IMG/VR virus record: IMGVR_UViG_3300042340_000144
DNA length: 64,000 nucleotides
Reading direction: 5' to 3' (one strand)
Source: a virus
Lineage: Duplodnaviria; Heunggongvirae; Uroviricota; Caudoviricetes
Part shown: piece by piece, positions 18,174 to 56,711 of the stretch
How the letters are laid out: every line of letters starts with the position of its first letter
Numbering within the stretch: position 1 is the stretch's first letter
The notes under the pieces: generated by a model
The model's input: only the letters and a program-made list of their open reading frames with translations
Told to the model about the DNA's origin: nothing
The model's database searches: none
Position numbers and translations under genes: made by a program

Positions 18174-18175
18174 AT

Positions 18176-18212: not shown

Positions 18213-18242
18213 CAATACTGTAAATAATAATAAATTTATATT

Positions 18243-18611
18243 TTATTTAAATTCTTTTAAAAATGTTTTTCTAGCTAAGATATAAAGATTAAAATCTTTT
18301 ATATTATTTACTCTTACATTATTAAATGCTGCTTCTTTTAAAAAACTAATATTAAATTCCTCATTTATAAAAAAATAACAATCATTAAATATACAATTAT
18401 ATACTTTTAATTTATTAATATTTTTATCTAAGTCTTGTTCTATTAAATCTAATAAATGTAAATCAAAATTTATTAGTTCATTTATAATAGAAAGCCAATC
18501 ATTATTATCTTCTTTATTATAATTACATAAATAACCAACAACAGTATTAATTTCAGGAGTTCTAATTTGTAAAGTTAAATATGTAATTAATTTTTTAATA
18601 TATATATTCAT
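18243..18611 (-). CDS. hypothetical protein
   Basis: 122-aa ORF. Confidence 0.35.
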   Translation of the reverse strand: MNIYIKKLITYLTLQIRTPEINTVVGYLCNYNKEDNNDWLSIINELINFDLHLLDLIEQDLDKNINKLKVYNCIFNDCYFFINEEFNISFLKEAAFNNVRVNNIKDFNLYILARKTFLKEFK

Positions 18612-18612
18612 A

Positions 18613-19335
18613 TTAATGTTTTTTTAAATTATAATTATTAGCCATCCAAAGAGGACATTGTTTAAGTTTATTTTTTAAATAAGCATTAATTAAAACTACT
18701 TTAGTTCTTTCTTTTAACAAACACCTAGGCATAAGACCTAACTTTGAAACTTCTTGAATTGTAAAATTAGGAACACCATATAAAAATGAATCTAATAATT
18801 GTTTTTCTAATCTAAGAAGTAGTGCCCAAAAATAAACAAAAATCATATAAGGATGTGTATTTTTATCTAATATATCAACTTGACTATATAAATCTTTAAC
18901 AATATGTTCATTTCTAGAACTAAAGTAATAATAATTGGTGCCTTCTTTTGATAAAGTTCTTTTTATTCTATTAAACCTTTTAAATGTTACTTCCCACATA
19001 TTTCCATAAAAAGAAACTTCATCATCAAATACTAAATCAACACAGCTAGTAACTAATAATTCTTTATCAATTATCATATTCATAATGACTAAATAATGTG
19101 GATATAATCTATGTAAAAATTCATATCGACAGTATTTTAAAAGAGTCATTAAATCTGGATATAATAACTCAGTAATTAGTTCTTTAACTGCTTCATCATC
19201 TTTAATAGATGTTGCAATAATTATAAAAGGAATGTATAAAGAGTCTCCATTACCTGATTGAACTGCTACACAGTTAATAATATTGTTAACAGTATTATTA
19301 CTATTACTTAATAACTCTTTCTTATTATCTATCAC
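18613..19335 (-). CDS. hypothetical protein
   Basis: 240-aa ORF, 1-nt spacing to downstream gene. Confidence 0.4.
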   Translation of the reverse strand: MIDNKKELLSNSNNTVNNIINCVAVQSGNGDSLYIPFIIIATSIKDDEAVKELITELLYPDLMTLLKYCRYEFLHRLYPHYLVIMNMIIDKELLVTSCVDLVFDDEVSFYGNMWEVTFKRFNRIKRTLSKEGTNYYYFSSRNEHIVKDLYSQVDILDKNTHPYMIFVYFWALLLRLEKQLLDSFLYGVPNFTIQEVSKLGLMPRCLLKERTKVVLINAYLKNKLKQCPLWMANNYNLKKH

Positions 19336-20491
19336 TATAAAAGTCCAATATACTTACAACATAATTATAACTATCTTTACCAATTAAATTATAAAATACT
19401 TCTCTATTTTTATTATCATTTGTTACTTCAATTAGTTTTATTAAACTTATATGTTTACTTCTATCTTCTTTATATAAATTTATTAAAAAGTCAATAAAAG
19501 GAATCATATTATTCTCTAATAGTTCCTTACTAATTAAATTTTTACATAATAAATCATTAATATCTTTGGCTTCAAGGGGTAAATATATATAATATTTAGT
19601 AGTAGGATTAAGTAGTATTAAATCAATAATTTGATGTATTAGTTGTTTATAAGATTTATAATTATTAAATTCATCTTTATCACTATCAAAACAAAAACAT
19701 ATTTGTTTAAAAGGAGCTAATTTATTACTATAGTTTAATAATCCTTGTACTCCTAATATACCTACAGCTTGTAATCCTAATTGATATAAAGATATAGTAT
19801 CAACAAATCCTTCTGATATACATAATAATTTATTAGTATTATATAAATCTATAAATTGTTCTAATACTAAAGTATTTATACTAACTTCTAAATTTTTATA
19901 TCTTGGTATTAATTCATTAGGAGATCCTATATATCTACCTACAAAAGAGGTTATATAACCACTATTTGATATAACTGGAAATACAATTCTATCAATAAAG
20001 AACTCTTTATTATTTTTAAATAAACCATATTTATTTAAAAGACTTCTACTAAAATTACTTCTTAGATTTGTACCAGAGGCATAACCAATATTTATCATTT
20101 TAATAGTATTTAATGCTAGTCCTCTATTTAATAAATATTGTAAAGAATTTCCTTCTAAATCATTAATATAAGTATTATTAACTTCTTTATAAAAATTATA
20201 TTTAACTGTGTCAATATTAGTTTTAATTTTAATATTAAATCTTTCAGCTAAATCTTTAATAGATTCTTTATATTTATCTTTAGTGCCAAATAATAAATAA
20301 CTATTAAGACCTATAACATCTGCTTTAAAACCACAAGAAGCACTAAAACAATATACAAATTCATTATTAATAATAGATGCTTTTTTAACTCTATTACAAC
20401 AAGGACAGTCTATTGTTTTAGTATATTTAGTAGATAATAAATCACTAATCTTTACATTACTTTTAATTTCACTAAGAAGATCCCATGCCAT
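19325..20491 (-). CDS. DnaG-like DNA primase (zinc-binding + TOPRIM)
   Basis: 388 aa; N-terminal zinc-ribbon CPCCNRVKKASIINNEFVYCFSASCG; TOPRIM-like acidic block LCISEGFVDT ... FCFDSDKDE. Confidence 0.65.
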   Translation of the reverse strand: MAWDLLSEIKSNVKISDLLSTKYTKTIDCPCCNRVKKASIINNEFVYCFSASCGFKADVIGLNSYLLFGTKDKYKESIKDLAERFNIKIKTNIDTVKYNFYKEVNNTYINDLEGNSLQYLLNRGLALNTIKMINIGYASGTNLRSNFSRSLLNKYGLFKNNKEFFIDRIVFPVISNSGYITSFVGRYIGSPNELIPRYKNLEVSINTLVLEQFIDLYNTNKLLCISEGFVDTISLYQLGLQAVGILGVQGLLNYSNKLAPFKQICFCFDSDKDEFNNYKSYKQLIHQIIDLILLNPTTKYYIYLPLEAKDINDLLCKNLISKELLENNMIPFIDFLINLYKEDRSKHISLIKLIEVTNDNKNREVFYNLIGKDSYNYVVSILDFYSDR

Positions 20492-29727: not shown

Positions 29728-29795
29728 GTATTTGTATACTGTAAATTAATATTAAATATCAAACTTAAAGTGGTGTAGTGTTATTAATATTTATA

Positions 29796-34027: not shown

Positions 34028-34085
34028 TACATATACCTTATAAGATTAAACTTAAAAGGCAAACTTAAAAAGTATTACAGATTAA

Positions 34086-36602: not shown

Positions 36603-37472
36603 ATGGCATCTAAAAGAATTAGTCAATTGCCTCCTGCATCATCTGTATCAGGCAATTCATTATTAGCTATTGTTAATAATAATGTAACTGAAAAAGTTAC
36701 TATATCTCAACTACCTTTAGGTATTACTTCAGTTAATAATTTAGGAGATGGAGCTTCTTTAGGATTTGTATCACAAAATGAATTAAGATTAAAAACTTTA
36801 GTAGCAGGAACTGGTTTATCTTTTACAACAAGTTTTAATAGTGTTACATTAAATACTGTATTTAATGTTAATAATGTAGGTAGTGGAACATCACTTATAA
36901 ATACCTTTACTAATCCTAACTTAGCTTTAAAGTCTATAACTGGATCAGGCAATATTACTATAACTGATAATACTACTAGTATTAACATAGCTAGTACACC
37001 ATTAACAACTTCTAATACTGGTAGTGGAAAATCATTTATAAACTCTTTTACTAATAATAACTTAGCTTTAAAGTCTATAACTGGATCAGGTAGTGTAACA
37101 GTTACAGATAATACTACTAGTATTAATATAGCTAGTGTTCCTGTAACAAGTTCTACTACTGGATCTGGAACATCATTTATAAATTCATTTACCAACTCTA
37201 ACTTAGCTCTTAAATCAATTACTGGATCAGGTAGTGTAACTGTAACTGATAATACCACCAGCATTAATATTGCTAGTACACCAGTAACTGCTTCTAGTAG
37301 TGGTTCTGGTACATCCCTTATAAATTCATTTACTAATTCTAATCTAGCTTTAAAGTCTATAACTGGATCAAATGGTATAATAATTACAAATAATACTACT
37401 AGTATTGATATTGCTAATACTAATAATATAAACTTTGCTCAAACTTTAGCAATAGGAATGCTTAAATGTTAA
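36603..37472 (+). CDS. tail-fibre-like protein with 4 x 47-aa tandem repeats
   Basis: 289 aa; Ser/Thr/Asn-rich beta-type repeats GSGxSxINSFTNxNLALKSITGSGxVTVTDNTTSINIAS...; overlaps start of next fibre gene. Confidence 0.5.
   Translation: MASKRISQLPPASSVSGNSLLAIVNNNVTEKVTISQLPLGITSVNNLGDGASLGFVSQNELRLKTLVAGTGLSFTTSFNSVTLNTVFNVNNVGSGTSLINTFTNPNLALKSITGSGNITITDNTTSINIASTPLTTSNTGSGKSFINSFTNNNLALKSITGSGSVTVTDNTTSINIASVPVTSSTTGSGTSFINSFTNSNLALKSITGSGSVTVTDNTTSINIASTPVTASSSGSGTSLINSFTNSNLALKSITGSNGIIITNNTTSIDIANTNNINFAQTLAIGMLKC
36879..37442 (+). repeat. four tandem 141-bp coding repeats
   Basis: repeat unit starts at 36879, 37020, 37161, 37302 (ggtagtgg/ggatctgg/ggttctgg), period exactly 141 bp. 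Confidence 0.8.
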
Positions 37473-38797
37473 TACTAGGAACAACAACAGATAAAATTCA
37501 AGTTACTTTAAGTAGTGCAATTACTACAAATCAATTAGATTGTATTGCAACTTATAAAGATATAACAACTTCAGCATATTCTGGAAGCGCACCAATACTT
37601 GTTACAACTAATAACACTACTAATGTAGATTTGGTGCCAGCACCAACTTCTAATACTCAAAGAATTGTAGATTTTATTAGCATTTATAACAATGACACTG
37701 CAAATGCAACAGTAACGGTAACAATAAATAGAAATGGTTCAGTGGGTATATTATTTAAATGTACTTTAAAAACTAGTGAATCTTTAGTATATAGTGAAGG
37801 TGCAGGTTGGAATATACATTCAAATAATGGGTCCCCTAAACAATTTTTAACATATGATACTAGTTTAAATTCTAATAAAAACTACTTTAAAAATCCTGCT
37901 TTCTCAGTAATTCAAAGCAGTGCATCAGGAACACTTGCCAACTCCCTAGCACTGCCAACAGCATCGCTTGGATACCTAGGCGAAACAGAGTGGGGTATTG
38001 CTGCTAGTGGTGGCACACCTGCTTATGCTTTTAATTCAGCAAATGAATCTGTCACTTTTACAGGCGCAGCTTCTACTACAGCAATCTATTTACTACAAAG
38101 ACTTGAAAGTAGAGATACTAACAGGCTTAAAGCCAAAACAGTAACATTCTCTTGTGAAATCTCTAACTCACTTCTCACATCAGTAATCTGGGAAGTATTT
38201 AGACCCACTACTAGCAATGATACTCATGGTACTATTGCAACACCTACACAAACTCTAATTGCTAATGGTACTTTTACTGTAAACAGTACATTAAGTAAAT
38301 ATAGTGTTACTTTTGCTTTACCTAGTGAAGTTTCTAGAGGGTTAGAAGTAAGACTGAGAGTAGGAGCGCAAACATCAGGAACATGGGTTGTGTCGCGATT
38401 GCAATTAGAAGAGGGAAGTACTGCTACTGATTTTAATTGTGAAGATTATCCTAAAGAGCTTAGGAAGTGCCAGAGGTATTTTCAGACTAATCCGTTAGGA
38501 TGGGTTTTAACTACAAACTCAATCTCATCTAATATGAATGTATCGGGGACACTGCTAGTCGAAATGCGGACAACACCAATTATCGCCCAACTTACTACAG
38601 ACGTTTATGGCATTGCTACGGGACCCAACACAGACTCGAACTATAGCTCAACCAATAGCGATATTGCCTTGGTGGTCGCTTCTTCAAACGGTGTTGCTCG
38701 TATCAGACTAACTGGACTTGGTGCTGTCTCTCCTACCAACGCTTTTTTCACATTGGGCCCTGAGAACAAGTTCTCTCTTTCTGCACACATTCCCTAA
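37466..38797 (+). CDS. tail fibre / receptor-binding protein A (mosaic)
   Basis: 443 aa; N-terminal ~110 aa near-identical to the start of 39276..40565; C-terminal third encoded by markedly GC-richer DNA (about 38400-38797); ends SAHIP. Confidence 0.6.
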   Translation: MLILGTTTDKIQVTLSSAITTNQLDCIATYKDITTSAYSGSAPILVTTNNTTNVDLVPAPTSNTQRIVDFISIYNNDTANATVTVTINRNGSVGILFKCTLKTSESLVYSEGAGWNIHSNNGSPKQFLTYDTSLNSNKNYFKNPAFSVIQSSASGTLANSLALPTASLGYLGETEWGIAASGGTPAYAFNSANESVTFTGAASTTAIYLLQRLESRDTNRLKAKTVTFSCEISNSLLTSVIWEVFRPTTSNDTHGTIATPTQTLIANGTFTVNSTLSKYSVTFALPSEVSRGLEVRLRVGAQTSGTWVVSRLQLEEGSTATDFNCEDYPKELRKCQRYFQTNPLGWVLTTNSISSNMNVSGTLLVEMRTTPIIAQLTTDVYGIATGPNTDSNYSSTNSDIALVVASSNGVARIRLTGLGAVSPTNAFFTLGPENKFSLSAHIP

Positions 38798-39275: not shown

Positions 39276-40565
39276 ATGTTAATATTAGCAACAACAACTG
39301 ATAAAATTCAAGTATTACTTACAAGTGCAGTTACAACAAATCAATTAGATTGTATTGCAACTTATAAGGACATTTCAACTACAGCTTATTCTGGCAGTTC
39401 TCCAACACTTGTTACAACTAACAATACAACTGCTGTAGATTTGGTTCCAGCACCAGCTTCTAATGTTCAGAGAATTGTAGACTTTATAAGTGTTTACAAT
39501 GCTGATACTGCAAATGCAATAGTAACTATAAGAATAAATAGAAATGGCTCTACTGGAGTCCTTTTTAAATGTATCTTATCAACTAATGAATTACTTGTAT
39601 ATGTTGAAGGAAAAGGTTGGAATATACACTCAAATAGTGGTTTATCTAAACAATCTTTAACATATGATAATAGTAATATAACTACAAATCCAAACTATAT
39701 AATTAATAGTGGTTTTCAAGTTGCACAAGCAGCAACTTCTGCAACAATAACTGCTGGAACAGCAACACCAACTGCATCTTTAGGTTATCCAGTTGTTGAT
39801 AGTTGGTTTTGTTATTCAGTTGGTGGTAATCCAACTTTAGCTCAAATTGCTGGTTCTGGTAATACTGCTAATAGACTTCAATTAACTGGTGCTGCATCTA
39901 TAACATCTGTTGGTATTGGTCAAAGAATAGAAGCTATTAATGTTGTATCTTTAGCAAATAAAACTGCAACATTATCATTTGAATGTAGTAATTCTTTACT
40001 TACATCTTTAACAGTAATAGCTAATAGACCAACAACAACTGCTAATACATTTGGCACAATTGGAACACCAACAAAGACTTTAATAAATTCTACTAATGTT
40101 GTAATTAATTCAACTTTAACTAGATATTCAGTCACTTTTACTTGCCCACAAGATGTTAATAAAGGGTTAGAAATACTATTTGTTTTAGGTGCTCAAACTA
40201 GTGGTACTTTTGTATTATCTAATGTAAAATTAGAAGAAGGTAGTGTTGCTACTACTTATGTAAGTTCTGATTATCCTAGGGAATTGAGAATATGTCAGAG
40301 ATATTTTTGGGCGCTGTTGAGTCCACTTGCTCTCCAAGGTGTTTCGGGCGGAGTAACCACTCAGCAAGTTTTCCCCATTTCTTTACCTAGCCCAATGTTT
40401 GCTAGTCCTGTTGTTAGTTCCAGTTCATCTGGCTTGATACAGTGTACATTAGCTACAACAGCTAGTACACAGTTTTTGATTATTATTTTAACGTCAACTA
40501 TTTCTGCGCCGAATGGAACAGCAGGTACGTTATCTACAGCTCTCTTATCTGCTTATATACCCTAA
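39276..40565 (+). CDS. tail fibre / receptor-binding protein B (paralog of fibre A, different distal domain)
   Basis: 429 aa; conserved N-terminus MLILATTTDKIQV...NRNGS; distal part diverged; last ~260 nt GC-richer; ends SAYIP. Confidence 0.6.
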   Translation: MLILATTTDKIQVLLTSAVTTNQLDCIATYKDISTTAYSGSSPTLVTTNNTTAVDLVPAPASNVQRIVDFISVYNADTANAIVTIRINRNGSTGVLFKCILSTNELLVYVEGKGWNIHSNSGLSKQSLTYDNSNITTNPNYIINSGFQVAQAATSATITAGTATPTASLGYPVVDSWFCYSVGGNPTLAQIAGSGNTANRLQLTGAASITSVGIGQRIEAINVVSLANKTATLSFECSNSLLTSLTVIANRPTTTANTFGTIGTPTKTLINSTNVVINSTLTRYSVTFTCPQDVNKGLEILFVLGAQTSGTFVLSNVKLEEGSVATTYVSSDYPRELRICQRYFWALLSPLALQGVSGGVTTQQVFPISLPSPMFASPVVSSSSSGLIQCTLATTASTQFLIIILTSTISAPNGTAGTLSTALLSAYIP

Positions 40566-47596: not shown

Positions 47597-49066
47597 CTAA
47601 TTATCTATTACTAATAATTCACCAAATAAAGGAATATTACTCTCATAGTATTCCTTTTCTAGTACTGTCCATATAACTTGTATAGAACCTTTATTATTAA
47701 ATGGTTCTAATTCTTGAGGAACTCTTTCTAAATACAAATCTGTTAATACAACAATTAAACATACATTATTAATATCAACTTGTTCAAAACCTTTATTAAT
47801 AAACTGTTTAAATAGAGGTATAACATCAGTACCACCACCTCCTACTAAGTACTTATCTTTATGTTCTAATAACACATCAATAAGAGGTCTATCTAACTCA
47901 CTCATATTAAATAAATGAGTACCAGTAATACCATCATCAAATGTTACTAAAAGTAAATTACCAACAACTTTACTAATACTATTAATCTGATCTAAAAAGT
48001 GATTAAGACATTCTATAGAGCCATAAATACTACCAGATAAATCAACAAATACAGCTATTGTATCTGGCTGAGGTAGTCTTATATAAGGATGGTTAATAGC
48101 ACATCTATTAAAAGGGGATAAACCCATTTCATAACCATAAAACTCCTCCTCTCTAACAACATTATAATTAGTTATAATTTTATCTGATAAAGAATTAGAA
48201 GTTATTTGTTTAAGTCTATCCTCCCATCTTAAATCACTACTTTGAATAGAATCTACATCAGAAGGTATTAACTTATTAGATAACTTTCCATGCTGCTTTT
48301 TCTTATCATTTTTAATAGCATTAGCAGCCCTTTTAGCTAGATCTTTTAATGTTTCTTGTTGTTCTTCATTATTAGTAGAATCACCATCTAACACATCAAG
48401 ATCTACCTCTTCTAGCTTTATAATAAGACCAGATGGTAATGTAATAGAATCATAATCATAATCATCATTAATATTACTATTACTATTACTATTACTACTA
48501 TTACTATTACTATTACTATTATCTTGTTGTTGATTATTATTACTATTACTACTAGAATTAAACTTACTATTAGCTAATACATAAGCTAATAGTTGTTCTT
48601 CTGTCCAATTATTATCATTAATTCTAGGATGATTTGGTTCTAATAATGTACTTAAAAAGACACCTCCTAAGTCACCAAAAGTATAACCAGCTTCTTTTAA
48701 TGATTGATTAATAACAGCATCTTCAACTAAGTTAATAATCTCTTTTAAGAAGTAAGCTTTATCACTATATTGTTTATAAAGCCCTTTATTATGAAGACCA
48801 AATCTATAACTATGATTAAGATATATATGATATATCTCATGTAAAGTTAAAGTTATAAACTCACTTAACTTACTACTATCAGCCTCAATTTTATCAATGT
48901 AAGACTTGTTATACATAATAGTATTATTAGTACAAGCTGCATAAGCAAAGCTATAATCACCTATCTTAATACTAATAGCAGATAACAAATAAGCAAAGAA
49001 TGGTTCAACTTTATTAACTAATAAATATATAGTTTTATCATTAAGTTTAAAAGATAGTTTACTCAT
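47597..49066 (-). CDS. VWA-domain protein with N-terminal HExxH metallopeptidase-like domain (MoxR partner)
   Basis: 489 aa; HExxH LTLHEIYHIYLNH; MIDAS-type IAVFVDLSGSIYG; internal (SN)n tract from hexanucleotide repeats. Confidence 0.65.
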   Translation of the reverse strand: MSKLSFKLNDKTIYLLVNKVEPFFAYLLSAISIKIGDYSFAYAACTNNTIMYNKSYIDKIEADSSKLSEFITLTLHEIYHIYLNHSYRFGLHNKGLYKQYSDKAYFLKEIINLVEDAVINQSLKEAGYTFGDLGGVFLSTLLEPNHPRINDNNWTEEQLLAYVLANSKFNSSSNSNNNQQQDNSNSNSNSSNSNSNSNINDDYDYDSITLPSGLIIKLEEVDLDVLDGDSTNNEEQQETLKDLAKRAANAIKNDKKKQHGKLSNKLIPSDVDSIQSSDLRWEDRLKQITSNSLSDKIITNYNVVREEEFYGYEMGLSPFNRCAINHPYIRLPQPDTIAVFVDLSGSIYGSIECLNHFLDQINSISKVVGNLLLVTFDDGITGTHLFNMSELDRPLIDVLLEHKDKYLVGGGGTDVIPLFKQFINKGFEQVDINNVCLIVVLTDLYLERVPQELEPFNNKGSIQVIWTVLEKEYYESNIPLFGELLVIDN

Positions 49067-50346
49067 TATAATGTGCTCATTCTAAGGCCTTGATCAACTA
49101 AAGATTTAGTGCATACATGCTCTTTTGTAATAGCCTCTGAACCAGTAATAAGTTGATAGTTAATACTTACATCCTGCTTAGCCATTAACATGTCAAATAC
49201 ATTACTAATAGTTGCTTTTGCATTTATACCTTCCTTAAATTCAGTATATGCAATTTTATCTAACACTAACATTAAATTACTAATGGGAGGATAATCAATA
49301 GTATGTCTGCCTTTTTTATTATAACTAGTATTTACTTTACCTTCATCTTTTAACTTTACAAAAGTTGTCATTCTATTATTAATCTCTTGATAAACAGTGA
49401 AAATAACACTACTTACAGCTTCTAAGTTAGCAGTAATATGTTTACTATAATCAACTGATTTATCTTTACAAGTAGACTCTAAAAACTCAATAGAAGGTAT
49501 ATTTAAAGTACTATTTAAACTTTTAACAAAGATATTAGATAAACTACTACCAATAAGACCACTAACATTCTCTGTAAATGGCTGTTTATATTTATTGTCT
49601 AATACATTAACAGTTAATTTATATAACATGTCACTAACAGCAGACCAAGTTCTAGGACAAGGATTAACATAGTTATTACTATTAGCACCATAACCTACAA
49701 ATTCAGTTGGAACACCACCATTAGCTGATAAGAACTTACTATCATTAGTAATTGCCCATTTCCTATCCTTTAAGAATGCATGAACACTTGGATGATTATT
49801 ATTAGCACTATATTCTAAGTATTCTTCAACATCAAGTTGTACTTCTAAAAGCACTAATCTACTAATAATAGGACTACTAATACTAAATACATTAGCATTA
49901 TCACCAGCCCTATTAGTGGCACCAACAATAATAAACTTATCAGTTGGTAAGTCATAGTTACCAAGCTTTCTATCTCCTAACAACTGTTGTAAAATCATCA
50001 TCTCTTGAGGATTAGCATTAGCAAAATCATCTAGAAACAATACAGTCTTTTTATCACTATTAATAGCTTTGTTATACCATTCAGCAACGTAATGATTACA
50101 AGCTTTTGTATCAGGGTTGATAAAATCAACGCCATAGATATTAGATTTAGTGATTAAACCTCCTGTAAATACAACAATGTTATAATCATTATCTTTAGCA
50201 TATTGATAGATTTTAGCTGATTTACCTAAACCTGGAGCCCCCATAAACAAACAACTTCTATTAGTATAACTAGCAAGTTCAAGTTGCATAGGAATGCTAT
50301 TTAAAGTAATCTCCCCACCATTAAAATTTGACAACTTATTTGACAT
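49066..50346 (-). CDS. MoxR-type AAA+ ATPase
   Basis: 426 aa; Walker A FMGAPGLGKS, Walker B VLFLDDFANANPQ, Arg-finger region ISRL; stop overlaps VWA start (ATGA). Confidence 0.7.
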   Translation of the reverse strand: MSNKLSNFNGGEITLNSIPMQLELASYTNRSCLFMGAPGLGKSAKIYQYAKDNDYNIVVFTGGLITKSNIYGVDFINPDTKACNHYVAEWYNKAINSDKKTVLFLDDFANANPQEMMILQQLLGDRKLGNYDLPTDKFIIVGATNRAGDNANVFSISSPIISRLVLLEVQLDVEEYLEYSANNNHPSVHAFLKDRKWAITNDSKFLSANGGVPTEFVGYGANSNNYVNPCPRTWSAVSDMLYKLTVNVLDNKYKQPFTENVSGLIGSSLSNIFVKSLNSTLNIPSIEFLESTCKDKSVDYSKHITANLEAVSSVIFTVYQEINNRMTTFVKLKDEGKVNTSYNKKGRHTIDYPPISNLMLVLDKIAYTEFKEGINAKATISNVFDMLMAKQDVSINYQLITGSEAITKEHVCTKSLVDQGLRMSTL

Positions 50347-51873: not shown

Positions 51874-52141
51874 TAATAAACCCCTTATTATATACTTCTT
51901 TTTCTAGAGAACTAAACAAATTAATAACTTCCCCAGAAATTATTACAAATTGATCATTAGTAAAATTATCATCTAAATACCCATCATCATATTTTATAGA
52001 TAATGATGATGGGTTAATATTTAGCACAATTGCAAATTTAATAATAGGATTATATCTTAATGAATTATCTAAAGCTAATTCAGCTATAGCTAATCTATTA
52101 TTTAAATTAACCCTTTTCCCTAAACGATCTACTATAATCAT
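51866..52141 (-). CDS. hypothetical protein
   Basis: 91-aa ORF. Confidence 0.3.
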   Translation of the reverse strand: MIIVDRLGKRVNLNNRLAIAELALDNSLRYNPIIKFAIVLNINPSSLSIKYDDGYLDDNFTNDQFVIISGEVINLFSSLEKEVYNKGFINV

Positions 52142-52445
52142 TTAACAATTCTTCCTTAATATTAAAATACTTAATAATCTTATCTTTAACATTATTAATA
52201 GTATTAACACCATTAATCATGCCAGATAAATGTCTGGGTTTAATTCCTAAATCATTTGCTACATCCTGTTGTTTTTTACCAGTCATCTTGGTTAAAACAC
52301 CCAATGTATAAGCACCACTTACTACTCTCCAATGAGTAATAAAAGACTCTGCAATAGCTTTATCTTCAACACTTAATCTATCATTATTATAATCAAATCT
52401 CAAAGCCTTATATTGGTCCAAATTCTTAGGATATGTAATAGTCAT
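52107..52445 (-). CDS. HTH (XRE-like) DNA-binding regulator
   Basis: 112 aa; HTH block LGVLTKMTGKKQQDVANDLGIKPRHLSGMINGVN. Confidence 0.5.
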   Translation of the reverse strand: MTITYPKNLDQYKALRFDYNNDRLSVEDKAIAESFITHWRVVSGAYTLGVLTKMTGKKQQDVANDLGIKPRHLSGMINGVNTINNVKDKIIKYFNIKEELLNDYSRSFREKG

Positions 52446-52522
52446 TATTTTTAACTCTTTTAACTTTATTTGTAAAACATGTATATGTATTAATATGCAA
52501 ACTTAAAGTAATAAATATAAAC

Positions 52523-52906
52523 TTAATTCCAATCATCCCATTTAGCTAAAACAAGTTGTAATACATTGATTAAATTATTAGTATGTTCTCTATGATAAAT
52601 TAGTGGTGTTTTATTTACATCATCAATCAATCTAAGTAAATTGTTAAAGTCTATCAAAGTAAGTGATTTTATACATTGATTAACAGAAATAATACTTCCT
52701 AGTTTTAACCATTTTGATGGATATAAATCAAAATAATCTTCTAAACTCTTATCAATATAAATGTCAAAACAGTTTTTATAAGACCTCATAATACAACGTA
52801 ATTCATCATCTAAGGTGCAATTTTTATTACCTGATAAGATAAATTGAACTGTAAACTTCTTAAACTTTTTAATATAAATTGGTTGTATATTATTAGTTCC
52901 AATCAT
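52523..52906 (-). CDS. KPIYIY...LQLVIAKWDDWN family protein, copy 1 of 9
   Basis: 127 aa; N-terminal IQPIYIKK, central LIDFNNLLRLIDD, C-terminal VLQLVLAKWDDWN; its ATG lies inside the WDDWN codons of copy 2. Confidence 0.55.
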   Translation of the reverse strand: MIGTNNIQPIYIKKFKKFTVQFILSGNKNCTLDDELRCIMRSYKNCFDIYIDKSLEDYFDLYPSKWLKLGSIISVNQCIKSLTLIDFNNLLRLIDDVNKTPLIYHREHTNNLINVLQLVLAKWDDWN

Positions 52907-53315
52907 CCCATTTAGAAATTACAAGTTGTAATACACTAATTAAATCCTTAAAGTATTTTGCATTTTTATAGTGCTCTGAATACTCTGGTGCTTTATTTAT
53001 TTCATCAGATATATTAATTAAAGAATTAAAATCTATTAAACTAAAACCATTTGAATTTAAGTATTCATTAACAGAAATTATCTTTCCTAAGTCTAACCAC
53101 TTTTCAGGATACTCAGGATATAAATTAAAATAATCTTTTATAGTAATACTAATATAAATAATAAAATTACTTTTAAAAGAATACATAATTCCATATACTT
53201 TATCTTGAGAACTATAATTCTTATCATTTGATAATATAAAATAATTAGTTAACCCCTTCTTAAAAATCTTTCTTTTAAGTGTATTAATATAAATTGGTTT
53301 CATAGTTAATTCCAA
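52893..53315 (-). CDS. family copy 2 of 9
   Basis: ends VLQLVISKWDDWN. The track start is a UUG; the likely true ATG is 53301-53303 (MKPIYIN), 2 nt after copy 3 stop (UAA-CU-AUG). Confidence 0.55.
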   Translation of the reverse strand: MELTMKPIYINTLKRKIFKKGLTNYFILSNDKNYSSQDKVYGIMYSFKSNFIIYISITIKDYFNLYPEYPEKWLDLGKIISVNEYLNSNGFSLIDFNSLINISDEINKAPEYSEHYKNAKYFKDLISVLQLVISKWDDWN

Positions 53316-53659
53316 TCATCCCATTTAGCAATTATTAATTGAATAATATCTAATACACCTATATTATCTTTTAATAATGGATTATTATAAAGATTAATTA
53401 CCTCATCAAAAGTTAAAAGCTTATAATTTTTAATATCAATAGGAGCATTAATATGATTAATACATAAATTACTATATTTATCTATAATTTGTTTATTAAG
53501 TATTATGGATAAATAACTATATTTGGGAGTACTTATAAAATTATTATAGGAATATTTAGTTGCGTTTTTATATCTATCTGGAGGTTTAAATCTAAAATAA
53601 TAAATATATCTATTAGTATAAATTTGTATTGGTCTTTGTTTAATCATACTTAATTCCAA
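53306..53659 (-). CDS. family copy 3 of 9
   Basis: 117 aa; RPIQIYT; LTFDEVINLY; IIQLIIAKWDDWN. Confidence 0.55.
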   Translation of the reverse strand: MELSMIKQRPIQIYTNRYIYYFRFKPPDRYKNATKYSYNNFISTPKYSYLSIILNKQIIDKYSNLCINHINAPIDIKNYKLLTFDEVINLYNNPLLKDNIGVLDIIQLIIAKWDDWN

Positions 53660-54087
53660 TCATCCCATTTAGTAATAATTAATTGTAACAAATCTAAAAA
53701 TGTAGTAAGAGCTTTATTTCCATCTTTAAATGTAAATACAGGTTTAGTAAATAAAAAACTATAATTATATTTAGTAAAGTGGTTATATTCATTATATAAA
53801 TCTAATACATCATTAAAAGATAATAATTTATATTTACCTTCTGGTAATGCCCTCCAATATTGATGATGTATTTGTTCTATTTCTAATTCTTTAATAAATA
53901 TATCTATATTTATAATTGTCTTATTATAATAGTTAGGGTTTCTAGGATCAGTATATTGCTGTGCATACTGTATAAAAACAATAGGAGCAAATAGCTTGTT
54001 ATATTTCTTATTACATTGTTTAATGTAAATAATTTTAGAGTTAGCTTCAGTATCAATAGTTGAATAAATTTTATATATAAGATTCAT
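53650..54087 (-). CDS. family copy 4 of 9
   Basis: 145 aa; LSFNDVLDLY; LLQLIITKWDDWN. Confidence 0.55.
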   Translation of the reverse strand: MNLIYKIYSTIDTEANSKIIYIKQCNKKYNKLFAPIVFIQYAQQYTDPRNPNYYNKTIINIDIFIKELEIEQIHHQYWRALPEGKYKLLSFNDVLDLYNEYNHFTKYNYSFLFTKPVFTFKDGNKALTTFLDLLQLIITKWDDWN

Positions 54088-54099
54088 ATTAAATTAGTT

Positions 54100-54453
54100 T
54101 CAATCACCCCATTTAGCTATTATTAGTTGCATAACACTGAGTAATTTAGGTCTTGCATCGCTTTCATTTCTCAACTTAACTTCAGCTAAATAGGTATATA
54201 AATCCAGTGCTTCTTTAAAAGTTATCTTTTCTTTATCTTTAATATTTATAGGACTAATATCTGCTGTTGCACATGGTAAATCATAATAATCTATAAACTC
54301 ATTATTTGCTATAAAACACCATTTTAAACACATAATATAATAATACTTATCATTAAACATAGACACTTCAACTTCTGGTTTAAATCTAAAATAAAAGTTT
54401 GTAGATGATTTATATATTTCTATTTGTCTGATCATTATATTAATTCCAATCAT
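54100..54453 (-). CDS. family copy 5 of 9 (C-terminus truncated by TGG>TGA)
   Basis: 117 aa; ITFKEALDLY; VMQLIIAKWGD*; the WN codons are replaced by a stop (gattgaaac vs gattggaat). Confidence 0.5.
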   Translation of the reverse strand: MIGINIMIRQIEIYKSSTNFYFRFKPEVEVSMFNDKYYYIMCLKWCFIANNEFIDYYDLPCATADISPINIKDKEKITFKEALDLYTYLAEVKLRNESDARPKLLSVMQLIIAKWGD

Positions 54454-54835
54454 TCCATTTAGCTATGATTAGTTGCATAATACTTATCAACTCTTCTTTG
54501 GTTATAGCAAAGCTAACTCTACTAAAATCTTCAATTTTTAACTTATAAAAATTATCCAGCATATTTATAACTTCATTAAAAGTTAAACTTTTATACAAAT
54601 TTATATTAGTTTTACTTCTTTGAAAGTTTGATACACGTTCCCATTTTACTAACACATCAGCTTGAAGAAAATAACTATTAGTTTCAATATTATGTACATT
54701 TACAGGAAATAGTTTTAAGTTATCTATTACTTCTTCTTTGTTGGTAATAGCTAAATAATAGATGGGTTTAACACTGGTTAAAGAGTCTCTTTTACATAAC
54801 TTATACTTAATTTCAAACATATTAATTAGTACCAT
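54440..54835 (-). CDS. family copy 6 of 9
   Basis: 131 aa; VKPIYYLAI; LTFNEVINML; IMQLIIAKWNDWN. Confidence 0.55.
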   Translation of the reverse strand: MVLINMFEIKYKLCKRDSLTSVKPIYYLAITNKEEVIDNLKLFPVNVHNIETNSYFLQADVLVKWERVSNFQRSKTNINLYKSLTFNEVINMLDNFYKLKIEDFSRVSFAITKEELISIMQLIIAKWNDWN

Positions 54836-55200
54836 TCATCCCATTTAGCAATGACAAGTTGTAGCAAACTAATTACATATATTTTACCTGTATACTTTTC
54901 ATTACTAACATCAACTATAAGATCTAATAACTCTTCAAATGTTATAAGTTTAAAGCAGTCTTTTATAATTTGACTATTATTTTCTCTACAGTTAAATAAC
55001 TCATAATCTACTAAATAATCTTTAGCAATACTAGAAGAAAAGTTAATTAAAAAGCCCCCTGAGTTAGAATTAAATATGGCACATTTATTAAGATCTTCTA
55101 AGTTATGTATTATGTAATACTCATCAGGAGTAAACATGTTAGTCTTTTTACTTATATAAATGTAAATAGGTTTTATATTAGACTTTATCATTAATACCAA
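54826..55200 (-). CDS. family copy 7 of 9
   Basis: 124 aa; IKPIYIYI; ITFEELLDLI; LLQLVIAKWDEWY. Confidence 0.55.
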   Translation of the reverse strand: MVLMIKSNIKPIYIYISKKTNMFTPDEYYIIHNLEDLNKCAIFNSNSGGFLINFSSSIAKDYLVDYELFNCRENNSQIIKDCFKLITFEELLDLIVDVSNEKYTGKIYVISLLQLVIAKWDEWY

Positions 55201-55568
55201 TCATCCCAATTTGCAATTACAAGTTGTAACAACTTAATTAAACTATCTTTATTATAATGAAAACTATCTTTTATATCTTTAATAAGTAATAACAATTCAT
55301 CAAATATTATTAGTCTTTTATCATCTAAATACATATCTGGCAGGGTAAAAGGCTTTGTCCAAAATAATATATTGTAATTATTAAACACACTTTCACTAAT
55401 AAAAATACCAAATTTATCATTACTTAAAACTTGAAACTTATAATCATTTGCTTTGGGATTATTAAAAGTATTTGTACTTAGAATTATAAAATAATTTTGA
55501 TTAGAATTAGTATTATATAAAATTTTACTAGGCTCTTTAATGTAAATATATATAGGTTTTATAGTCAT
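55191..55568 (-). CDS. family copy 8 of 9
   Basis: 125 aa; TIKPIYIYI; IIFDELLLLI; LLQLVIANWDDWY. Confidence 0.55.
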   Translation of the reverse strand: MTIKPIYIYIKEPSKILYNTNSNQNYFIILSTNTFNNPKANDYKFQVLSNDKFGIFISESVFNNYNILFWTKPFTLPDMYLDDKRLIIFDELLLLIKDIKDSFHYNKDSLIKLLQLVIANWDDWY

Positions 55569-55981
55569 TGATACCAGTCTTCCCAGTTTGCTATTATTAA
55601 TTGTAACAAACTAACTACCTCTGATAAATCCCAAGACTTATCAGGACTTTTTCCAACATAATCTAATAACTCTAATAATTCACTAAAATCTATTAAATAA
55701 AAATAATTTGAATTTAGATAACATTTATTATCTCTCTTAACCATTCCTTTTAATTCCCACCAAGAACTAGTTAATTTAAAATCAAAATCATCATGTATTT
55801 TTTTATTTATAAATAATATAGCATTTAAAGAATCAATTCTATAAAAACAATGTACTTTGTCTTCAGGATTAACTATCTTACTATCTAGTATAAAATATTT
55901 ATATCTTAAAGTATCATGAGAGGTAGATTTGTTTACATAATAATCAAACTTATAAATGTATATAGGTTGTATAGTACTCAT
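55565..55981 (-). CDS. family copy 9 of 9
   Basis: 138 aa; IQPIYIY; IDFSELLELL; LLQLIIANWEDWYQ; ATGA overlap with upstream GIY-YIG gene. Confidence 0.55.
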   Translation of the reverse strand: MSTIQPIYIYKFDYYVNKSTSHDTLRYKYFILDSKIVNPEDKVHCFYRIDSLNAILFINKKIHDDFDFKLTSSWWELKGMVKRDNKCYLNSNYFYLIDFSELLELLDYVGKSPDKSWDLSEVVSLLQLIIANWEDWYQ

Positions 55982-56379
55982 TTAATCTTCAAATTAACTC
56001 CTTTTTTAGCTATGGCTCTTTTAGTATTGTAACTATTACCTTTATGTACTGCATCTATTTCTAACTGTTCTAGTATCAATAACTGCTCTTTGGTAATGTT
56101 TTTATCTGCCACTACAAGTACATTAAATGTAAAATTAACAATGCCAAATTTATTAAAATCTTCTTGTAATCCTTTATTACGGTGTTTATTAAACATTAAA
56201 CTAGTAATATGATTATTCCATCTAATAGTTAAATTAATAGAACTGCCAATATACTTTTTATTATTACAAATACAAGTAATACAGTAAATACCAACTAACT
56301 TTAGTTTTCTATAAGAATAAGGTTTACTTTTAGCTGTAGTATTATTAGAGCTTTTTTTAGTTTTAGTAGTTGTTGTCAT
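55978..56379 (-). CDS. GIY-YIG endonuclease (small, homing-endonuclease-like)
   Basis: 133 aa; GIY-YIG module VGIYCITCICNNKKYIGSSINLTIRWNNH; basic N-terminus. Confidence 0.65.
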   Translation of the reverse strand: MTTTTKTKKSSNNTTAKSKPYSYRKLKLVGIYCITCICNNKKYIGSSINLTIRWNNHITSLMFNKHRNKGLQEDFNKFGIVNFTFNVLVVADKNITKEQLLILEQLEIDAVHKGNSYNTKRAIAKKGVNLKIK

Positions 56380-56432
56380 AATCTATTCAGTTTTTATATT
56401 AATGAATAGATTATAACATAATAAATGTTTTA

Positions 56433-56711
56433 TTAATCTGGTTTATATACAACACAATACCAAGCTCTAGCTTCATCAGGCACAGGAATCAAATAGTATT
56501 TTGAATATCCTTTTTTAGTAGCTCTATCATAACAAATACTTTTTGCATTAGTTTCTCTATTAGTACGGATAATATCACCTAGAATAGATACACCTTGAGC
56601 AATTTTAATATTGTCTGATTTGTAATTAGTTGGTAAAGTTAATGATGTTGCTGCAATAACAGAACCTTGAAATGAAGAAATTAATGCAATAGTACTAATA
56701 AATAATTTCAT
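56433..56711 (-). CDS. secreted small protein (signal peptide)
   Basis: 92 aa; N-terminal MKLFISTIALISSFQGSVIAA signal-like; two Cys. Confidence 0.4.
   Translation of the reverse strand: MKLFISTIALISSFQGSVIAATSLTLPTNYKSDNIKIAQGVSILGDIIRTNRETNAKSICYDRATKKGYSKYYLIPVPDEARAWYCVVYKPD

What the first reader, a model, noticed from the sequence alone, without database searches (positions are those of the whole stretch)
52523..56379. Nine tandem, translationally chained paralogous genes with conserved termini and hypervariable cores, capped by a GIY-YIG endonuclease
Nine consecutive minus-strand genes of 117-145 aa each share three blocks:
- an N-terminal (K/Q)PIYIY strand;
- a central (L/I)(T/D)F(D/N)E(L/V)(I/L)xL block;
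- an almost invariant C-terminus LLQL(V/I)IAKWDDW(N/Y).

The sequence between these anchors is essentially unrelated from copy to copy.

Gene junctions are extreme:
- stop and next ATG are separated by 2 nt (UAA-CU-AUG), or the next ATG lies inside the WDDWN codons (gATGATTGGaac);
- the conserved C-terminal coding sequence therefore doubles as the only possible ribosome-loading sequence for the next copy, and as a repeated homology tract;
- the nine-fold WDDWN tail thus gives about 40 nt of repeated homology at every junction, an obvious substrate for cassette shuffling.

Copy 5 carries a TGG>TGA change that trims the last two residues, indicating ongoing turnover.

The array is flanked 5' by a GIY-YIG endonuclease (ATGA overlap with copy 9) and 3' by an XRE-type HTH gene. 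I do not recognise the family.

Conserved scaffold ends plus a diversified middle, tandem amplification and an adjacent nuclease are the signature of an arms-race family. Candidate roles are anti-defence decoys/inhibitors, superinfection exclusion or host-takeover specificity factors.
Basis: seen in the sequence. Interest (0 to 1): 0.85.

Follow-up and report, generated by a model that had tools for sequence, protein, structure and literature searches.

The report
Phage tandem array of novel paralogs
An uncultured, very AT-rich giant phage carries nine back-to-back diverged copies of a small protein found nowhere else, always placed behind a stripped-down DNA-cutting enzyme; related phages carry 1 to 9 copies, the pattern expected of genes caught in a virus-host arms race, but what the proteins do is untested.

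Summary
Nine minus-strand ORFs (55981-52523) each match one family profile (E 1e-25 to 1e-33) and occur nowhere else in the window. Gene junctions run from -14 to +12 nt. The family has no Pfam, PHROG, NCBIfam, PDB or BFVD match. It is confined to one clade of uncultured jumbo phages (196-257 kb contigs). An AlphaFold model (pLDDT 82) gives a small beta-sheet plus helical fold, and the three conserved blocks are its first strand and last helices.

In 12 distinct related loci the order is always small GIY-YIG nuclease, then 1-9 family genes, then a weak HTH-like gene. The nuclease is an I-TevI-type catalytic domain without a DNA-binding domain and is under purifying selection.

About 29 cassette types exist. 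One (copy 4's type) is in all eight loci with clear HMM-positive arrays, and the remotest relatives carry one or two marginal look-alikes of it. Phages with 92-95% identical flanks hold 2-9 cassettes. Identity breakpoints fall in the 55-65 nt junction repeat. Orthologous cassettes are conserved (dN/dS mostly 0.2-0.5), so "hypervariable" is wrong.

Best reading: an old, diversified gene "accordion" of host-interaction proteins, probably counter-defence. The nuclease may promote recombination, as SegB does in T6. Function is inferred, not shown.

The parts
56410..56418 (-). TGTTATAAT, an extended -10-like promoter element in the 53-nt gap upstream of the GIY-YIG gene
   Evidence: Read from the sequence. 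The block TTATGTTATAATCTATTCATTAATA is invariant in W, L001, L003 and L006. A consensus match only; not shown to be functional.
55978..56379 (-). GIY-YIG nuclease, 133 aa: an I-TevI-type catalytic domain only, with a basic N-terminal extension and no DNA-binding domain
   Evidence: PF01541 at 37.4 bits, PHROG 314 at E 2e-16, and TIGR01453 at 66.9 bits matching model positions 3-89 of 215. Aligns to I-TevI 1mk0 across the GIY, YIG, Arg and Glu positions. pI 10. Orthologues of 63-92% identity head every related array, with dN/dS 0.13-0.23.
55565..55981 (-). Copy 1 (138 aa), cassette type cluster 1; ATGA overlap with the nuclease stop
55191..55568 (-). Copy 2 (125 aa), type cluster 6; ATGA overlap with copy 1. 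This is the copy modelled with AlphaFold2.
   Evidence: The orthologue L006_1 is 66% identical. P0092 is 100% identical and lies on 8 contigs.
54826..55191 (-). Copy 3 (121 aa from the ATG; 124 aa from the TTG at 55200), type cluster 7; TAATG overlap with copy 2
   Evidence: The orthologues are L003_2 (83%) and L002_3 (59%).
54440..54820 (-). Copy 4 (126 aa from MFEIKY; 131 aa from the ATG at 54835), type A. This type is present in every locus with a clear HMM-positive array.
   Evidence: Orthologues of 65-85% identity in L001, L002, L003, L004 and L006, and the same type in L053 and L056. The single or double slot genes of L011 to L014 look A-like but are at best marginal HMM hits.
54100..54435 (-). 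Copy 5 (111 aa from MIRQIE; 117 aa from the ATG at 54453), type cluster 9. It ends KWGD-TGA, followed by AAC TAA.
   Evidence: The same truncated allele is in L007 to L010, and a 117-aa member of its 90% cluster (P0136) is on 20 contigs.
53650..54087 (-). Copy 6 (145 aa), type cluster 4
53306..53647 (-). Copy 7 (113 aa from the ATG; 117 aa from the TTG at 53659), type cluster 10; TAA-GT-ATG junction
52893..53303 (-). Copy 8 (136 aa from the ATG; 140 aa from the TTG at 53315), type cluster 11; TAA-CT-ATG junction
   Evidence: 97% nt and 94% aa identical to L003_4.
52523..52906 (-). Copy 9 (127 aa), type cluster 5. Its start ATG lies inside the WDDWN codons of copy 8 (14-nt overlap), and the canonical ATG seen in L001 is ATA here.
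   Evidence: 93-94% aa identical to L001_4 and L004_7; dS 0.07 against L004.
52511..55610 (-). Nine copies of a 55-65 nt junction repeat, made of the codons for the conserved C-terminal helix. Copies lie at 52511-52565, 52881-52935, 53294-53348, 53638-53692, 54082-54136, 54428-54482, 54814-54868, 55179-55233 and 55556-55610.
   Evidence: the repeat finder family D2, 64-78% identity to the reference copy, spacing 344-444 nt. Identity breakpoints between phages fall here.
52498..52507 (-). TTTAAGTTTG, the core of a conserved intergenic motif (ACTTTAAGTTTGCAyATTAATA) 53 nt upstream of the HTH-like gene; a candidate promoter or operator
   Evidence: Conserved in W, L001, L002, L003, L004 and L006. 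The motif has 5 exact minus-strand copies in the window, 4 of them intergenic upstream of genes, but the total count is not above chance.
52107..52445 (-). 112-aa HTH-like gene that closes every array
   Evidence: HTH_3 at E 0.01, 16.3 bits, below the cut-off of 23. Orthologues of 77-88% identity in L001, L002, L003, L004 and L006, with recognisable counterparts in L011, L013 and L014.

Best explanation
WHAT IT IS
The locus looks like one polycistronic unit. It starts with a domesticated GIY-YIG nuclease of the I-TevI type that has lost its DNA-binding domain. Nine diverged paralogues of a small (about 110-145 aa), soluble, probably non-enzymatic alpha/beta protein follow. This protein is specific to one clade of uncultured AT-rich jumbo phages.

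HOW IT AROSE
- The array grew from a single ancestral gene related to type A. The remotest relatives still carry only one or two A-like genes in this slot.
- Tandem duplication and divergence then produced about 29 sequence types.
- Today's arrays differ by largely in-register gain, loss and lateral replacement of whole cassettes.
- This happens by homologous recombination in the 55-65 nt junction repeat. The repeat exists because the fold's last helix is conserved at the protein level.

HOW IT WORKS
- Very short or overlapping junctions would allow translational coupling of the genes.
- The conserved blocks (first strand, F-E-L-L helix, terminal helices) build the scaffold. The variable beta-sheet half is proposed to carry the specificity.
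- The most likely role is that each type binds or blocks a different host factor, probably a defence factor. That would make the array a diversified, long-lived 'genomic accordion' of counter-defence or host-takeover genes.
- The adjacent nuclease may supply the DNA breaks that keep the array recombining, as SegB does in phage T6.

SHOWN VERSUS INFERRED
- Shown: family membership, anatomy, copy-number variation, cassette exchange and purifying selection.
- Inferred: co-transcription, translational coupling, the scaffold/specificity split, the counter-defence role and the nuclease's part in recombination.
For: FAMILY AND FOLD
- Nine HMM-positive copies, found only in the array.
- AlphaFold2 model with pLDDT 81.7 and pTM 0.79. 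The conserved blocks map to E7-11, H89-100, H107-119 and H121-124.
- The same order of secondary-structure elements came from an alignment restricted to type A, though that model has low confidence.
- No conserved catalytic-type residues: the invariant or near-invariant positions are I, F, L, Q, I, A and W.

RESTRICTED DISTRIBUTION
- 37 representatives among 1.84 billion proteins and 61 clusters among 5.8 billion.
- None found in GenBank phages (tblastn with copy 4 only), in 185,579 species genomes, or by pattern in IMG/VR.

CONSERVED MODULE
- The order nuclease, then 1-9 copies, then HTH-like gene holds in L001, L002, L003, L004, L006, L011/12, L013, L014, L053-55 and L056/57.
- In L011 to L014 the slot genes are only marginal HMM hits (E 0.002) or none; they were recognised by eye.

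CASSETTE TURNOVER
- Phages with 92-95% nt identical flanks carry 2, 3 or 9 cassettes.
- About 29 types at 50% identity; each window copy is a different type.
- Identity jumps from about 50% to about 96% inside the preceding copy's tail.
- W_9 against L004_7 has dS 0.07, while the flanks have dS 0.48-0.85.
- L003 carries a fusion of a full copy with half of another.

SELECTION AND EXPRESSION
- Orthologous cassettes have dN/dS 0.1-0.8, mostly 0.2-0.5.
- No terminator-like site on the coding strand within the array.
- The setting is early-region-like, near rIIA/rIIB, peptidyl-tRNA hydrolase and many small ORFs.

PRECEDENT
- The GIY-YIG endonuclease SegB drives tandem amplification of neighbouring anti-defence loci in T6, through breaks followed by recombination at short homology (PMC13096335).
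Against: - No functional evidence of any kind. There is no similarity to a known anti-defence protein, and PADLOC, Pfam and PHROGs are silent.
- No sign of positive selection in the cores.
- Cassette order is largely colinear between phages, which fits differential loss better than active shuffling.
- The copies are old (22-49% identity), unlike the near-identical amplicons of experimental accordions.
- The nuclease lacks the DNA-binding domain that targets SegB and I-TevI. In T6 a C-terminally truncated SegB was non-toxic, so this enzyme may be weak or act otherwise.
- The host is unknown and there is no expression data.
Confidence: 0.45

Rival explanations
1. The paralogues are partner subunits of the upstream nuclease. 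They would act as exchangeable targeting adaptors, or as inhibitors or regulators, for a GIY-YIG catalytic domain that has no DNA-binding domain of its own. The conserved helices would be the common docking surface and the variable half would set the specificity.
For: - The nuclease-array adjacency is strict across every related locus, out to dS above 1.2.
- ATGA overlap or a 1-7 nt spacing between the nuclease gene and the first family gene.
- The nuclease matches only positions 3-89 of the 215-position I-TevI-type model.
- The nuclease is better conserved than its neighbours at long range: dN 0.21-0.27 against 0.45-0.51.
Against: - No DNA-binding motif or fold was detected in the family.
- pI values are mixed, 4.9-9.4.
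- One conserved nuclease would not obviously need 1-9 partners.
- The adjacency may simply be inherited synteny.
- No complex prediction was possible with these tools.
Confidence: 0.2
2. The array is a neutral or selfish by-product. Repeated unequal crossing-over next to a nuclease gene made dispensable duplicates that are slowly decaying and have no host-directed function.
For: - Copy number ranges from 1 to 9, with loss being frequent.
- Premature TGA codons in three cassettes.
- One fused cassette.
- No detectable function.
Against: - All nine ORFs are intact and each type is under purifying selection (dN/dS mostly 0.2-0.5) over dS up to about 1.
- The TGA changes remove only 2-5 residues that the remotest marginal relatives lack anyway.
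- Cassettes have been transferred laterally and retained.
Confidence: 0.12
3. They are virion-packaged internal or ejected proteins, like the T4 internal proteins IPI-III. The conserved termini would act as packaging or processing signals and the variable bodies would act in the newly infected cell.
For: - Conserved ends with variable bodies, and polymorphism between related phages, recall the T4 ip loci (from my own knowledge of T4; not checked in a paper here).
Against: - The conserved blocks are predicted core secondary-structure elements at pLDDT 88-95, not detachable peptides.
- No obvious protease-site motif, by inspection only.
- The locus sits among rII-type, non-structural genes, on the opposite strand from the tail-fibre genes.
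Confidence: 0.07

Closest known systems
SegB-driven segmental amplification in phage T6, the phage 'genomic accordion' (PMC13096335; also the T4 counter-defence paper PMC9391042, seen only in a search listing)
   Same: - A free-standing GIY-YIG endonuclease gene directly beside tandemly repeated small accessory genes.
- Copy number differs between near-identical genomes.
- Recombination occurs at short repeated homology.
   Different: - Here the copies are ancient and diverged (22-49% identity, about 29 types), not identical amplicons.
- The nuclease is outside the repeat unit, lacks a DNA-binding domain and is fixed across the clade.
- No defence system or anti-defence activity is known for this locus.
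Anti-CRISPR (acr-aca) and similar anti-defence operons
   Same: A promoter, then several small, fast-turning-over genes of unknown fold, then an HTH-type gene at the end of the block.
   Different: - The HTH call is sub-threshold, and that gene has its own conserved upstream motif.
- All the cassettes are paralogues of one family rather than unrelated genes.
- No sequence link to any Acr or Aca.
- This comparison rests on my knowledge of acr loci.
T4 internal proteins IPI-III (polymorphic ip loci)
   Same: Small proteins with a conserved terminus and a divergent body, polymorphic between related phages; IPI* is an anti-restriction factor (from my own knowledge).
   Different: - In T4 the conserved part is a short cleavable N-terminal capsid-targeting peptide and the bodies are unrelated.
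- Here both ends are part of one predicted fold, and nothing suggests packaging.
Multigene families of large eukaryotic DNA viruses, such as ASFV MGF110/360/505 and poxvirus host-range families
   Same: Tandem arrays of diverged paralogues whose number varies between strains and which are linked to host interaction.
   Different: - A different virus realm and no homology.
- Here the genes are chained within one operon, with overlapping stop and start codons.
I-TevI and the TIGR01453 group I intron GIY-YIG endonucleases (for the nuclease gene only)
   Same: The catalytic domain matches above the curated cut-offs, with aligned GIY, YIG, Arg and Glu positions.
   Different: - No linker or DNA-binding domain: the match stops at model position 89 of 215.
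- Not inside an intron.
- Not sporadic: present in every relative examined.

Membership tests
GIY-YIG nuclease superfamily (PF01541) | Catalytic-domain profile match above the curated cut-off, with the GIY, YIG, Arg and Glu positions present | tested here: met
   PF01541 at 37.4 bits against 22.6. TIGR01453 at 66.9 against 56.05. The alignment to I-TevI 1mk0 covers GIY, YIG, RW and E.
Homing endonuclease (I-TevI / Seg type) | A C-terminal DNA-binding domain that targets the catalytic domain | tested here: not met
   The protein is 133 aa (104-133 aa in orthologues). It matches model positions 3-89 of 215 only, and no other Pfam family reaches its cut-off on it.
Homing endonuclease (I-TevI / Seg type) | Sporadic presence or absence among closely related genomes, as expected of a mobile selfish gene | tested here: not met
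   An orthologue sits at the same position in all 12 distinct related loci. dN/dS is 0.13-0.23 out to dS 1.6.
Homing endonuclease (I-TevI / Seg type) | Cleaves the endonuclease-free allele and is copied into it | not testable with these tools
   Needs biochemistry or co-infection crosses.
Genomic accordion (segmental tandem amplification) | Head-to-tail tandem copies of one gene | tested here: met
   Nine HMM-positive copies spaced 344-444 nt apart.
Genomic accordion (segmental tandem amplification) | Copy-number differences between closely related genomes | tested here: met
   2 (L053), 3 (L056) and 9 (window) copies in phages whose flanks are 92-95% nt identical. The clade as a whole ranges from 1 to 9.
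Genomic accordion (segmental tandem amplification) | Near-identical copies, reflecting recent amplification under selection | tested here: not met
   Copies within the window are 22-49% identical, and each belongs to a different 50% cluster.
acr-aca type anti-defence operon | A downstream HTH (Aca-like) regulator | tested here: inconclusive
   HTH_3 at E 0.01, 16.3 bits against a cut-off of 23. The best PDB sequence matches are HTH proteins at E of about 1.
acr-aca type anti-defence operon | Cassette proteins inhibit a host defence system | not testable with these tools
   No homology to any named family. The host is unknown.
T4-type internal proteins | A short cleavable N-terminal capsid-targeting sequence ahead of unrelated bodies | tested here: not met
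   The N-terminal block is predicted strand E7-11 of the fold. The bodies of c1, c2, c8 and c9 are homologous. Cleavage itself was not tested.
DUF1249 (PF06853, YqiB) | Profile match above the gathering score | tested here: not met
   Seventeen members of the 68-sequence alignment reach at most 18.6 bits against a cut-off of 25, over 50 residues in those examined. W_4 itself does not match.

The most novel reading that the evidence does not exclude
The nuclease and the array form a dedicated cassette system. There are two versions of this reading.

(a) The DNA-binding-domain-less GIY-YIG enzyme cuts at or near the conserved junction. That would actively drive in-register cassette gain, loss and exchange during co-infection, giving a nuclease-based, integron-like diversity generator in a phage.

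(b) The paralogues are interchangeable specificity subunits that dock through their conserved helices onto the bare catalytic domain, making a split, re-targetable nuclease.

A post-hoc lead for (a): the D-W-N codons of the tail read GATTGGAAC or GATTGGAAT. The first form fits the RAWTSGAAC cleavage motif reported for T6 SegB. That is a different enzyme, however, and the match follows from the conserved amino acids.
Probability: 0.12. Interest if true: 0.85.

Novelty: new variant of a known kind. Interest (0 to 1): 0.55.

Why it matters
Laboratory work has only recently shown that a GIY-YIG endonuclease can amplify neighbouring counter-defence genes in T-even phages (PMC13096335). What such events look like after long evolution in nature is not known. 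This locus may be a natural example. A single gene behind a conserved nuclease has expanded to as many as nine copies and diversified into about 29 types, which are traded as cassettes between wild phages.

The family has no match in PDB or BFVD, so its fold may be new (the AlphaFold database could not be searched), and it has no annotation. If its members are inhibitors of host defences, it is a ready-made panel of related proteins with different targets. If instead they partner the nuclease, it would be a new way of targeting a GIY-YIG enzyme.

The limits are that the phage is uncultured, the host is unknown, and every functional statement is inference.

Full report

Yes. The ORF listing finds nine consecutive minus-strand ORFs of 138, 125, 124, 131, 117, 145, 117, 140 and 127 aa between 55981 and 52523. 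A 133-aa ORF (56379-55978) precedes them and a 112-aa ORF (52445-52107) follows.

- The nine align over their whole length at 22-34% identity. Invariant residues are M1, I7, F99, Q127, L128 and W133.
- A family HMM scores every copy at E 1e-25 to 1e-33. It hits nothing else in the six-frame translation of the 64-kb window.
- At the DNA level there are nine copies of a 55-65 nt repeat, 64-82% identical and spaced 344-444 nt apart. These are the codons of the conserved C-terminus.
- Junctions, read from the sequence, in nt between the stop and the next start:

| Junction | Spacing | Note |
|---|---|---|
| nuclease > c1 | -4 | ATGA |
| c1 > c2 | -4 | ATGA |
| c2 > c3 | -1 | TAATG |
| c3 > c4 | +5 | |
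| c4 > c5 | +4 | |
| c5 > c6 | +12 | |
| c6 > c7 | +2 | TAA-GT-ATG |
| c7 > c8 | +2 | TAA-CT-ATG |
| c8 > c9 | -14 | start inside the WDDWN codons |
| c9 > HTH-like gene | +77 | |

- For c9 the ATG inside gATGATTGGaacTAA is the only start available. The downstream ATG used in L001 (MQPIYI) is ATA here and in L004.
- Copy 5 ends KWGD-TGA-AAC-TAA.

**2. What genome is this?**

The window is about 25% GC and almost entirely minus-strand coding. It encodes ribonucleotide reductase, a family A DNA polymerase, primase, helicase, endolysin and tail-fibre-like proteins.

Its relatives are metagenomic contigs of 196-257 kb that carry rIIA/rIIB-type genes. It is therefore an uncultured jumbo phage. The DNA polymerase is at most 29% identical to any GenBank phage, and the array region has no DNA match there. 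Contigs L007, L008 and L010 are the same phage at 99.5-99.8% nt identity, recovered from other samples.

**3. The protein family**

- None of the nine copies matches Pfam, PHROGs, NCBIfam or PADLOC above noise, and the same holds for Pfam and PHROGs scans of all 68 aligned family members. The only recurrent hit is DUF1249, for 17 family members, at no more than 18.6 bits against a cut-off of 25.
- An exhaustive HMM search of 1.84 billion representatives found 37 proteins. The word-indexed search of 5.8 billion found 61, all 'hypothetical'. Iterating with 68 sequences added no remote relatives.
- Nothing was found in GenBank phages by tblastn with copy 4, in 185,579 species genomes, or by pattern in IMG/VR.
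- AlphaFold2 on copy 2 with the 68-sequence alignment gives pLDDT 81.7 and pTM 0.79. The elements in order are strands 7-11, 25-30, 44-49 and 53-58, then helices 59-65, 89-100, 107-119 and 121-124.
- A second model was built from type-A orthologues only. It has low confidence (pLDDT 57) but the same order of elements.
- The conserved columns are hydrophobic or aromatic apart from one Gln, so an enzyme is unlikely. This last point is my inference.

**4. Comparative anatomy**

Twelve distinct related loci were recovered. The gene order is always small GIY-YIG gene, then family genes, then a 111-114 aa HTH-like gene, then further conserved small genes and an AAA ATPase with a DUF2201 protein where the contig reaches that far.

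Copy number by locus:

| Copies | Loci |
|---|---|
| 1 | L013, L014 |
| 2 | L011/12, L053-55 |
| 3 | L056/57 |
| 4 | L003 (the first is a 195-aa fusion of a full copy with the C-terminal half of another) |
| 5 | L001, L006 |
| 6 | L002 |
| 7 | L004 |
| 9 | the window |

- The slot genes of the remotest relatives (L011 to L014) are at best marginal HMM hits (E 0.002). They have a recognisable type-A-like N-terminus (YKLYSRKSLIN..PLFYLK) and a shorter tail ending SWD, SWE, TWE or CW.
- Clustering 126 family sequences at 50% identity gives about 29 types. Each window copy is a different type.
- Type A (copy 4) is present in all eight loci with a clear HMM-positive array.
- Cassette order is largely colinear: cluster 1 < 6 < 2 < 7 < A < 3/9/4/10/8/11 < 5, with one exception in L001. 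This is my reading. It fits in-register gain and loss better than free shuffling.

**5. Evidence for cassette turnover by recombination at the junctions**

- L053 and L056 share 92-95% nt identity with the window in both flanks, yet carry 2 and 3 cassettes against 9.
- Relative to L003, the window has c5 to c7 inserted between c4 and c8, and c9 appended.
- The window holds in tandem both versions of the last cassette. c8 equals L003_4 at 97% nt, and c9 equals L001_4 at 96% nt. The two are 49% identical to each other.
- In 30-nt steps, identity between the window and L004, L001 or L003 jumps from about 50% to 96-100% inside the preceding copy's conserved tail. Against L003 it drops back to about 50% right after the cassette's own tail; against L004 it declines to flank level.
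- c9 against L004_7 has dS 0.07, whereas the flanking genes of those two phages have dS 0.48-0.85. The cassette therefore moved recently between diverged backbones.
- Type-A orthologues show higher synonymous divergence in the last 45 codons than in the N-terminal part in 12 of 15 pairs. For L001_2 against L003_3 the values are 0.61 and 0.045. This points to breakpoints inside genes near the conserved C-terminal blocks.

**6. Selection**

- Orthologous cassettes have dN/dS 0.1-0.8, mostly 0.2-0.5, and the core is not faster than the C-terminal third. Flanking genes give 0.1-0.4.
- 'Hypervariable cores' is therefore the wrong description. The variety lies between old paralogue types, each maintained by purifying selection.
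- Core-only profile comparison, with both conserved ends removed, still links the types of c1, c2, c8 and c9 and two further types at 89-99% probability. The cores of c3, c4, c5, c6 and c7 are undetectable against the others.
- Codon choice in the tail follows genome usage. Its nucleotide conservation follows from the conserved amino acids plus AT-biased codons. It does not need a separate RBS or recombination-signal constraint.
- Shine-Dalgarno motifs are rare genome-wide: AGGA in 8 of 70 genes and GGAG in 4 of 70. The tail does place a GGA about 9 nt before several starts. The stop-start distances would allow termination-reinitiation coupling, which is my inference.

**7. The nuclease**

- It matches PF01541 and TIGR01453 above their cut-offs, but only over model positions 3-89 of 215.
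- It aligns to the I-TevI catalytic domain across the GIY, YIG, Arg and Glu positions.
- It has a basic N-terminal extension (pI 10) and no DNA-binding domain.
- Orthologues of 63-92% identity (104-133 aa) occur only at the head of these arrays. The next relatives are 43-54% identical proteins of about 160 aa, several of which also carry the SegE-type GIY-YIG Pfam domain. One looked up at 43% identity lies in an unrelated context.
- dN/dS is 0.13-0.23 out to dS 1.6. At long range the nuclease is better conserved than the HTH-like and AAA genes.
- It fails two defining features of a mobile homing endonuclease: it has no targeting domain, and its distribution is not sporadic. It behaves as a domesticated gene.

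**8. Transcription context**

- No terminator-like site lies on the coding strand within the array.
- A TGTTATAAT extended -10-like element sits 31 nt upstream of the nuclease ATG and is invariant in four relatives.
- The 77-nt gap before the HTH-like gene holds a conserved motif, ACTTTAAGTTTGCAyATTAATA.
- These are consensus matches only. The generic promoter scan is uninformative at this base composition.

**9. Mechanism and comparison with known systems**

The best-supported model is an old, diversified tandem amplification (a 'genomic accordion') of one ancestral gene behind a conserved nuclease. It is kept fluid by homologous recombination in the junction repeats, and it encodes a scaffold protein whose variable half gives each type a different target.

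The closest experimental precedent is T6 SegB, a free-standing GIY-YIG endonuclease. Its breaks, repaired through short homology by UvsX and UvsY, amplify adjacent and distant anti-defence loci (PMC13096335).

Differences from that precedent:
- The copies here are ancient.
- The nuclease is outside the repeat unit and lacks a DNA-binding domain.
- No defence target is known.

The layout of small variable genes followed by an HTH gene also recalls acr-aca operons, but the HTH call is sub-threshold.

The main rival is that the paralogues are partners of the bare catalytic domain, either adaptors or inhibitors. That would explain the strict linkage but has no direct support. Neutral decay is argued against by the purifying selection. 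A role as virion internal proteins is unlikely given the gene context and the structural role of the conserved ends.

**10. Verdict**

- The finding is real and better supported than a first reading could establish.
- The 'hypervariable core' and 'mobile nuclease cap' parts are wrong.
- The function is unproven.
- It is a new protein family, with no PDB or BFVD fold match, in a new variant of a known kind of viral locus.
- Interest is moderate to high for phage biologists. It is limited by the uncultured source and the unknown host.

Noticed in passing
window 54100-54102 (copy 5); L007 4343-4375, L008 4421-4453, L009 84-116 and L010 2-34 (copy 4 orthologue); L004 9603-9635 and L005 579-611: TGG>TGA at the conserved tail Trp codons recurs at least three times independently: at the second Trp of copy 5; at the second Trp of copy 4 in strains 94-99.8% identical to the window, which itself has TGG there; and at the first Trp of L004_4. 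Each time the downstream frame and the native TAA are intact (for example KWGD-TGA-AAC-TAA). The remotest marginal relatives end naturally at W-D/E, so the last residues may be dispensable. Low-level read-through of UGA as Trp is not excluded.
   Followed up: partly
window 52896-52904 (tail of copy 8); tails at 52526, 53309, 53653 and 54443: The D-W-N codons read GATTGGAAC, an exact fit to the RAWTSGAAC cleavage motif reported for T6 SegB (PMC13096335). Four other tails read GATTGGAAT (8 of 9). This is a post-hoc comparison with a different enzyme. The relaxed motif RAWTSGAAY occurs 10 times in the window against 6.5 expected, and five of those hits are these tails.
   Followed up: partly
window 52498-52507; also 8280-8289, 29760-29769 and 34060-34069 (minus strand): TTTAAGTTTG occurs five times exactly on the coding strand and never on the other. 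Four copies lie in intergenic gaps; three of them sit 30-55 nt upstream of a protein-coding start and the fourth lies upstream of the tRNA gene. A related TTAAGTTTG motif lies upstream of the nuclease gene in L002, L004, L011, L013 and L014. This may be a phage promoter element. The overall count with one mismatch allowed is not above chance.
   Followed up: partly
window 56433-56711 (minus strand): A 92-aa ORF just upstream of the nuclease has a signal-peptide-like N-terminus (MKLFISTIALISSFQGSVIAATS...). It is only 54-55% identical in relatives whose neighbouring genes are 85-100% identical, and tblastn finds no match in L002 or L004. It is a second fast-evolving small gene beside the array.
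   Followed up: no
L003 10001-10588: A 195-aa ORF is a fusion of one complete cassette (residues 1-119) with the C-terminal half of another (residues 121-195). It is a fossil of an unequal or illegitimate recombination event within the array.
   Followed up: partly
L006 1-1760, L011 1276-2750, L012 520-3949, L056 1133-2934; L001, L003 and L006 near 18000-20400: The neighbourhood in the relatives is crowded with selfish elements. The rIIB gene is split by a LAGLIDADG ORF in several phages. Large GIY-YIG endonucleases of 409-426 aa, some with a faint AP2 match, and intein-containing genes lie within 8 kb of the array. The small array-head GIY-YIG is distinct from these.
   Followed up: no
window 47597-49066 and 49066-50346 (minus strand): The 489-aa ORF is labelled 'HNH endonuclease' by PHROG 1314, while its orthologues in the relatives carry DUF2201 domains. 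It is paired with a 426-aa AAA ATPase. The pair is conserved downstream of every array where the contig reaches that far, and its function is unknown.
   Followed up: no
window 52904-52906 and 52886-52888; L001 after 10773: The canonical start of the last cassette (ATG in L001: MQPIYI) is ATA in the window and in L004. That leaves the in-frame ATG embedded in the previous gene's D-D-W codons as the only start. Nearly every tail carries this latent ATG (gATGATTGG).
   Followed up: partly
window 37466-38797 and 39276-40565 (plus strand): Two paralogous tail-fibre-like genes (PHROG 4492, E 7e-19 and 2e-31) lie on the opposite strand in a locally GC-richer segment. This is a second, unrelated pair of paralogues in the window.
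   Followed up: no
window 7712-7784 (minus strand): A single tRNA-Thr (anticodon UGU) gene. No tRNAs were found in the five 20-kb related loci.
   Followed up: no
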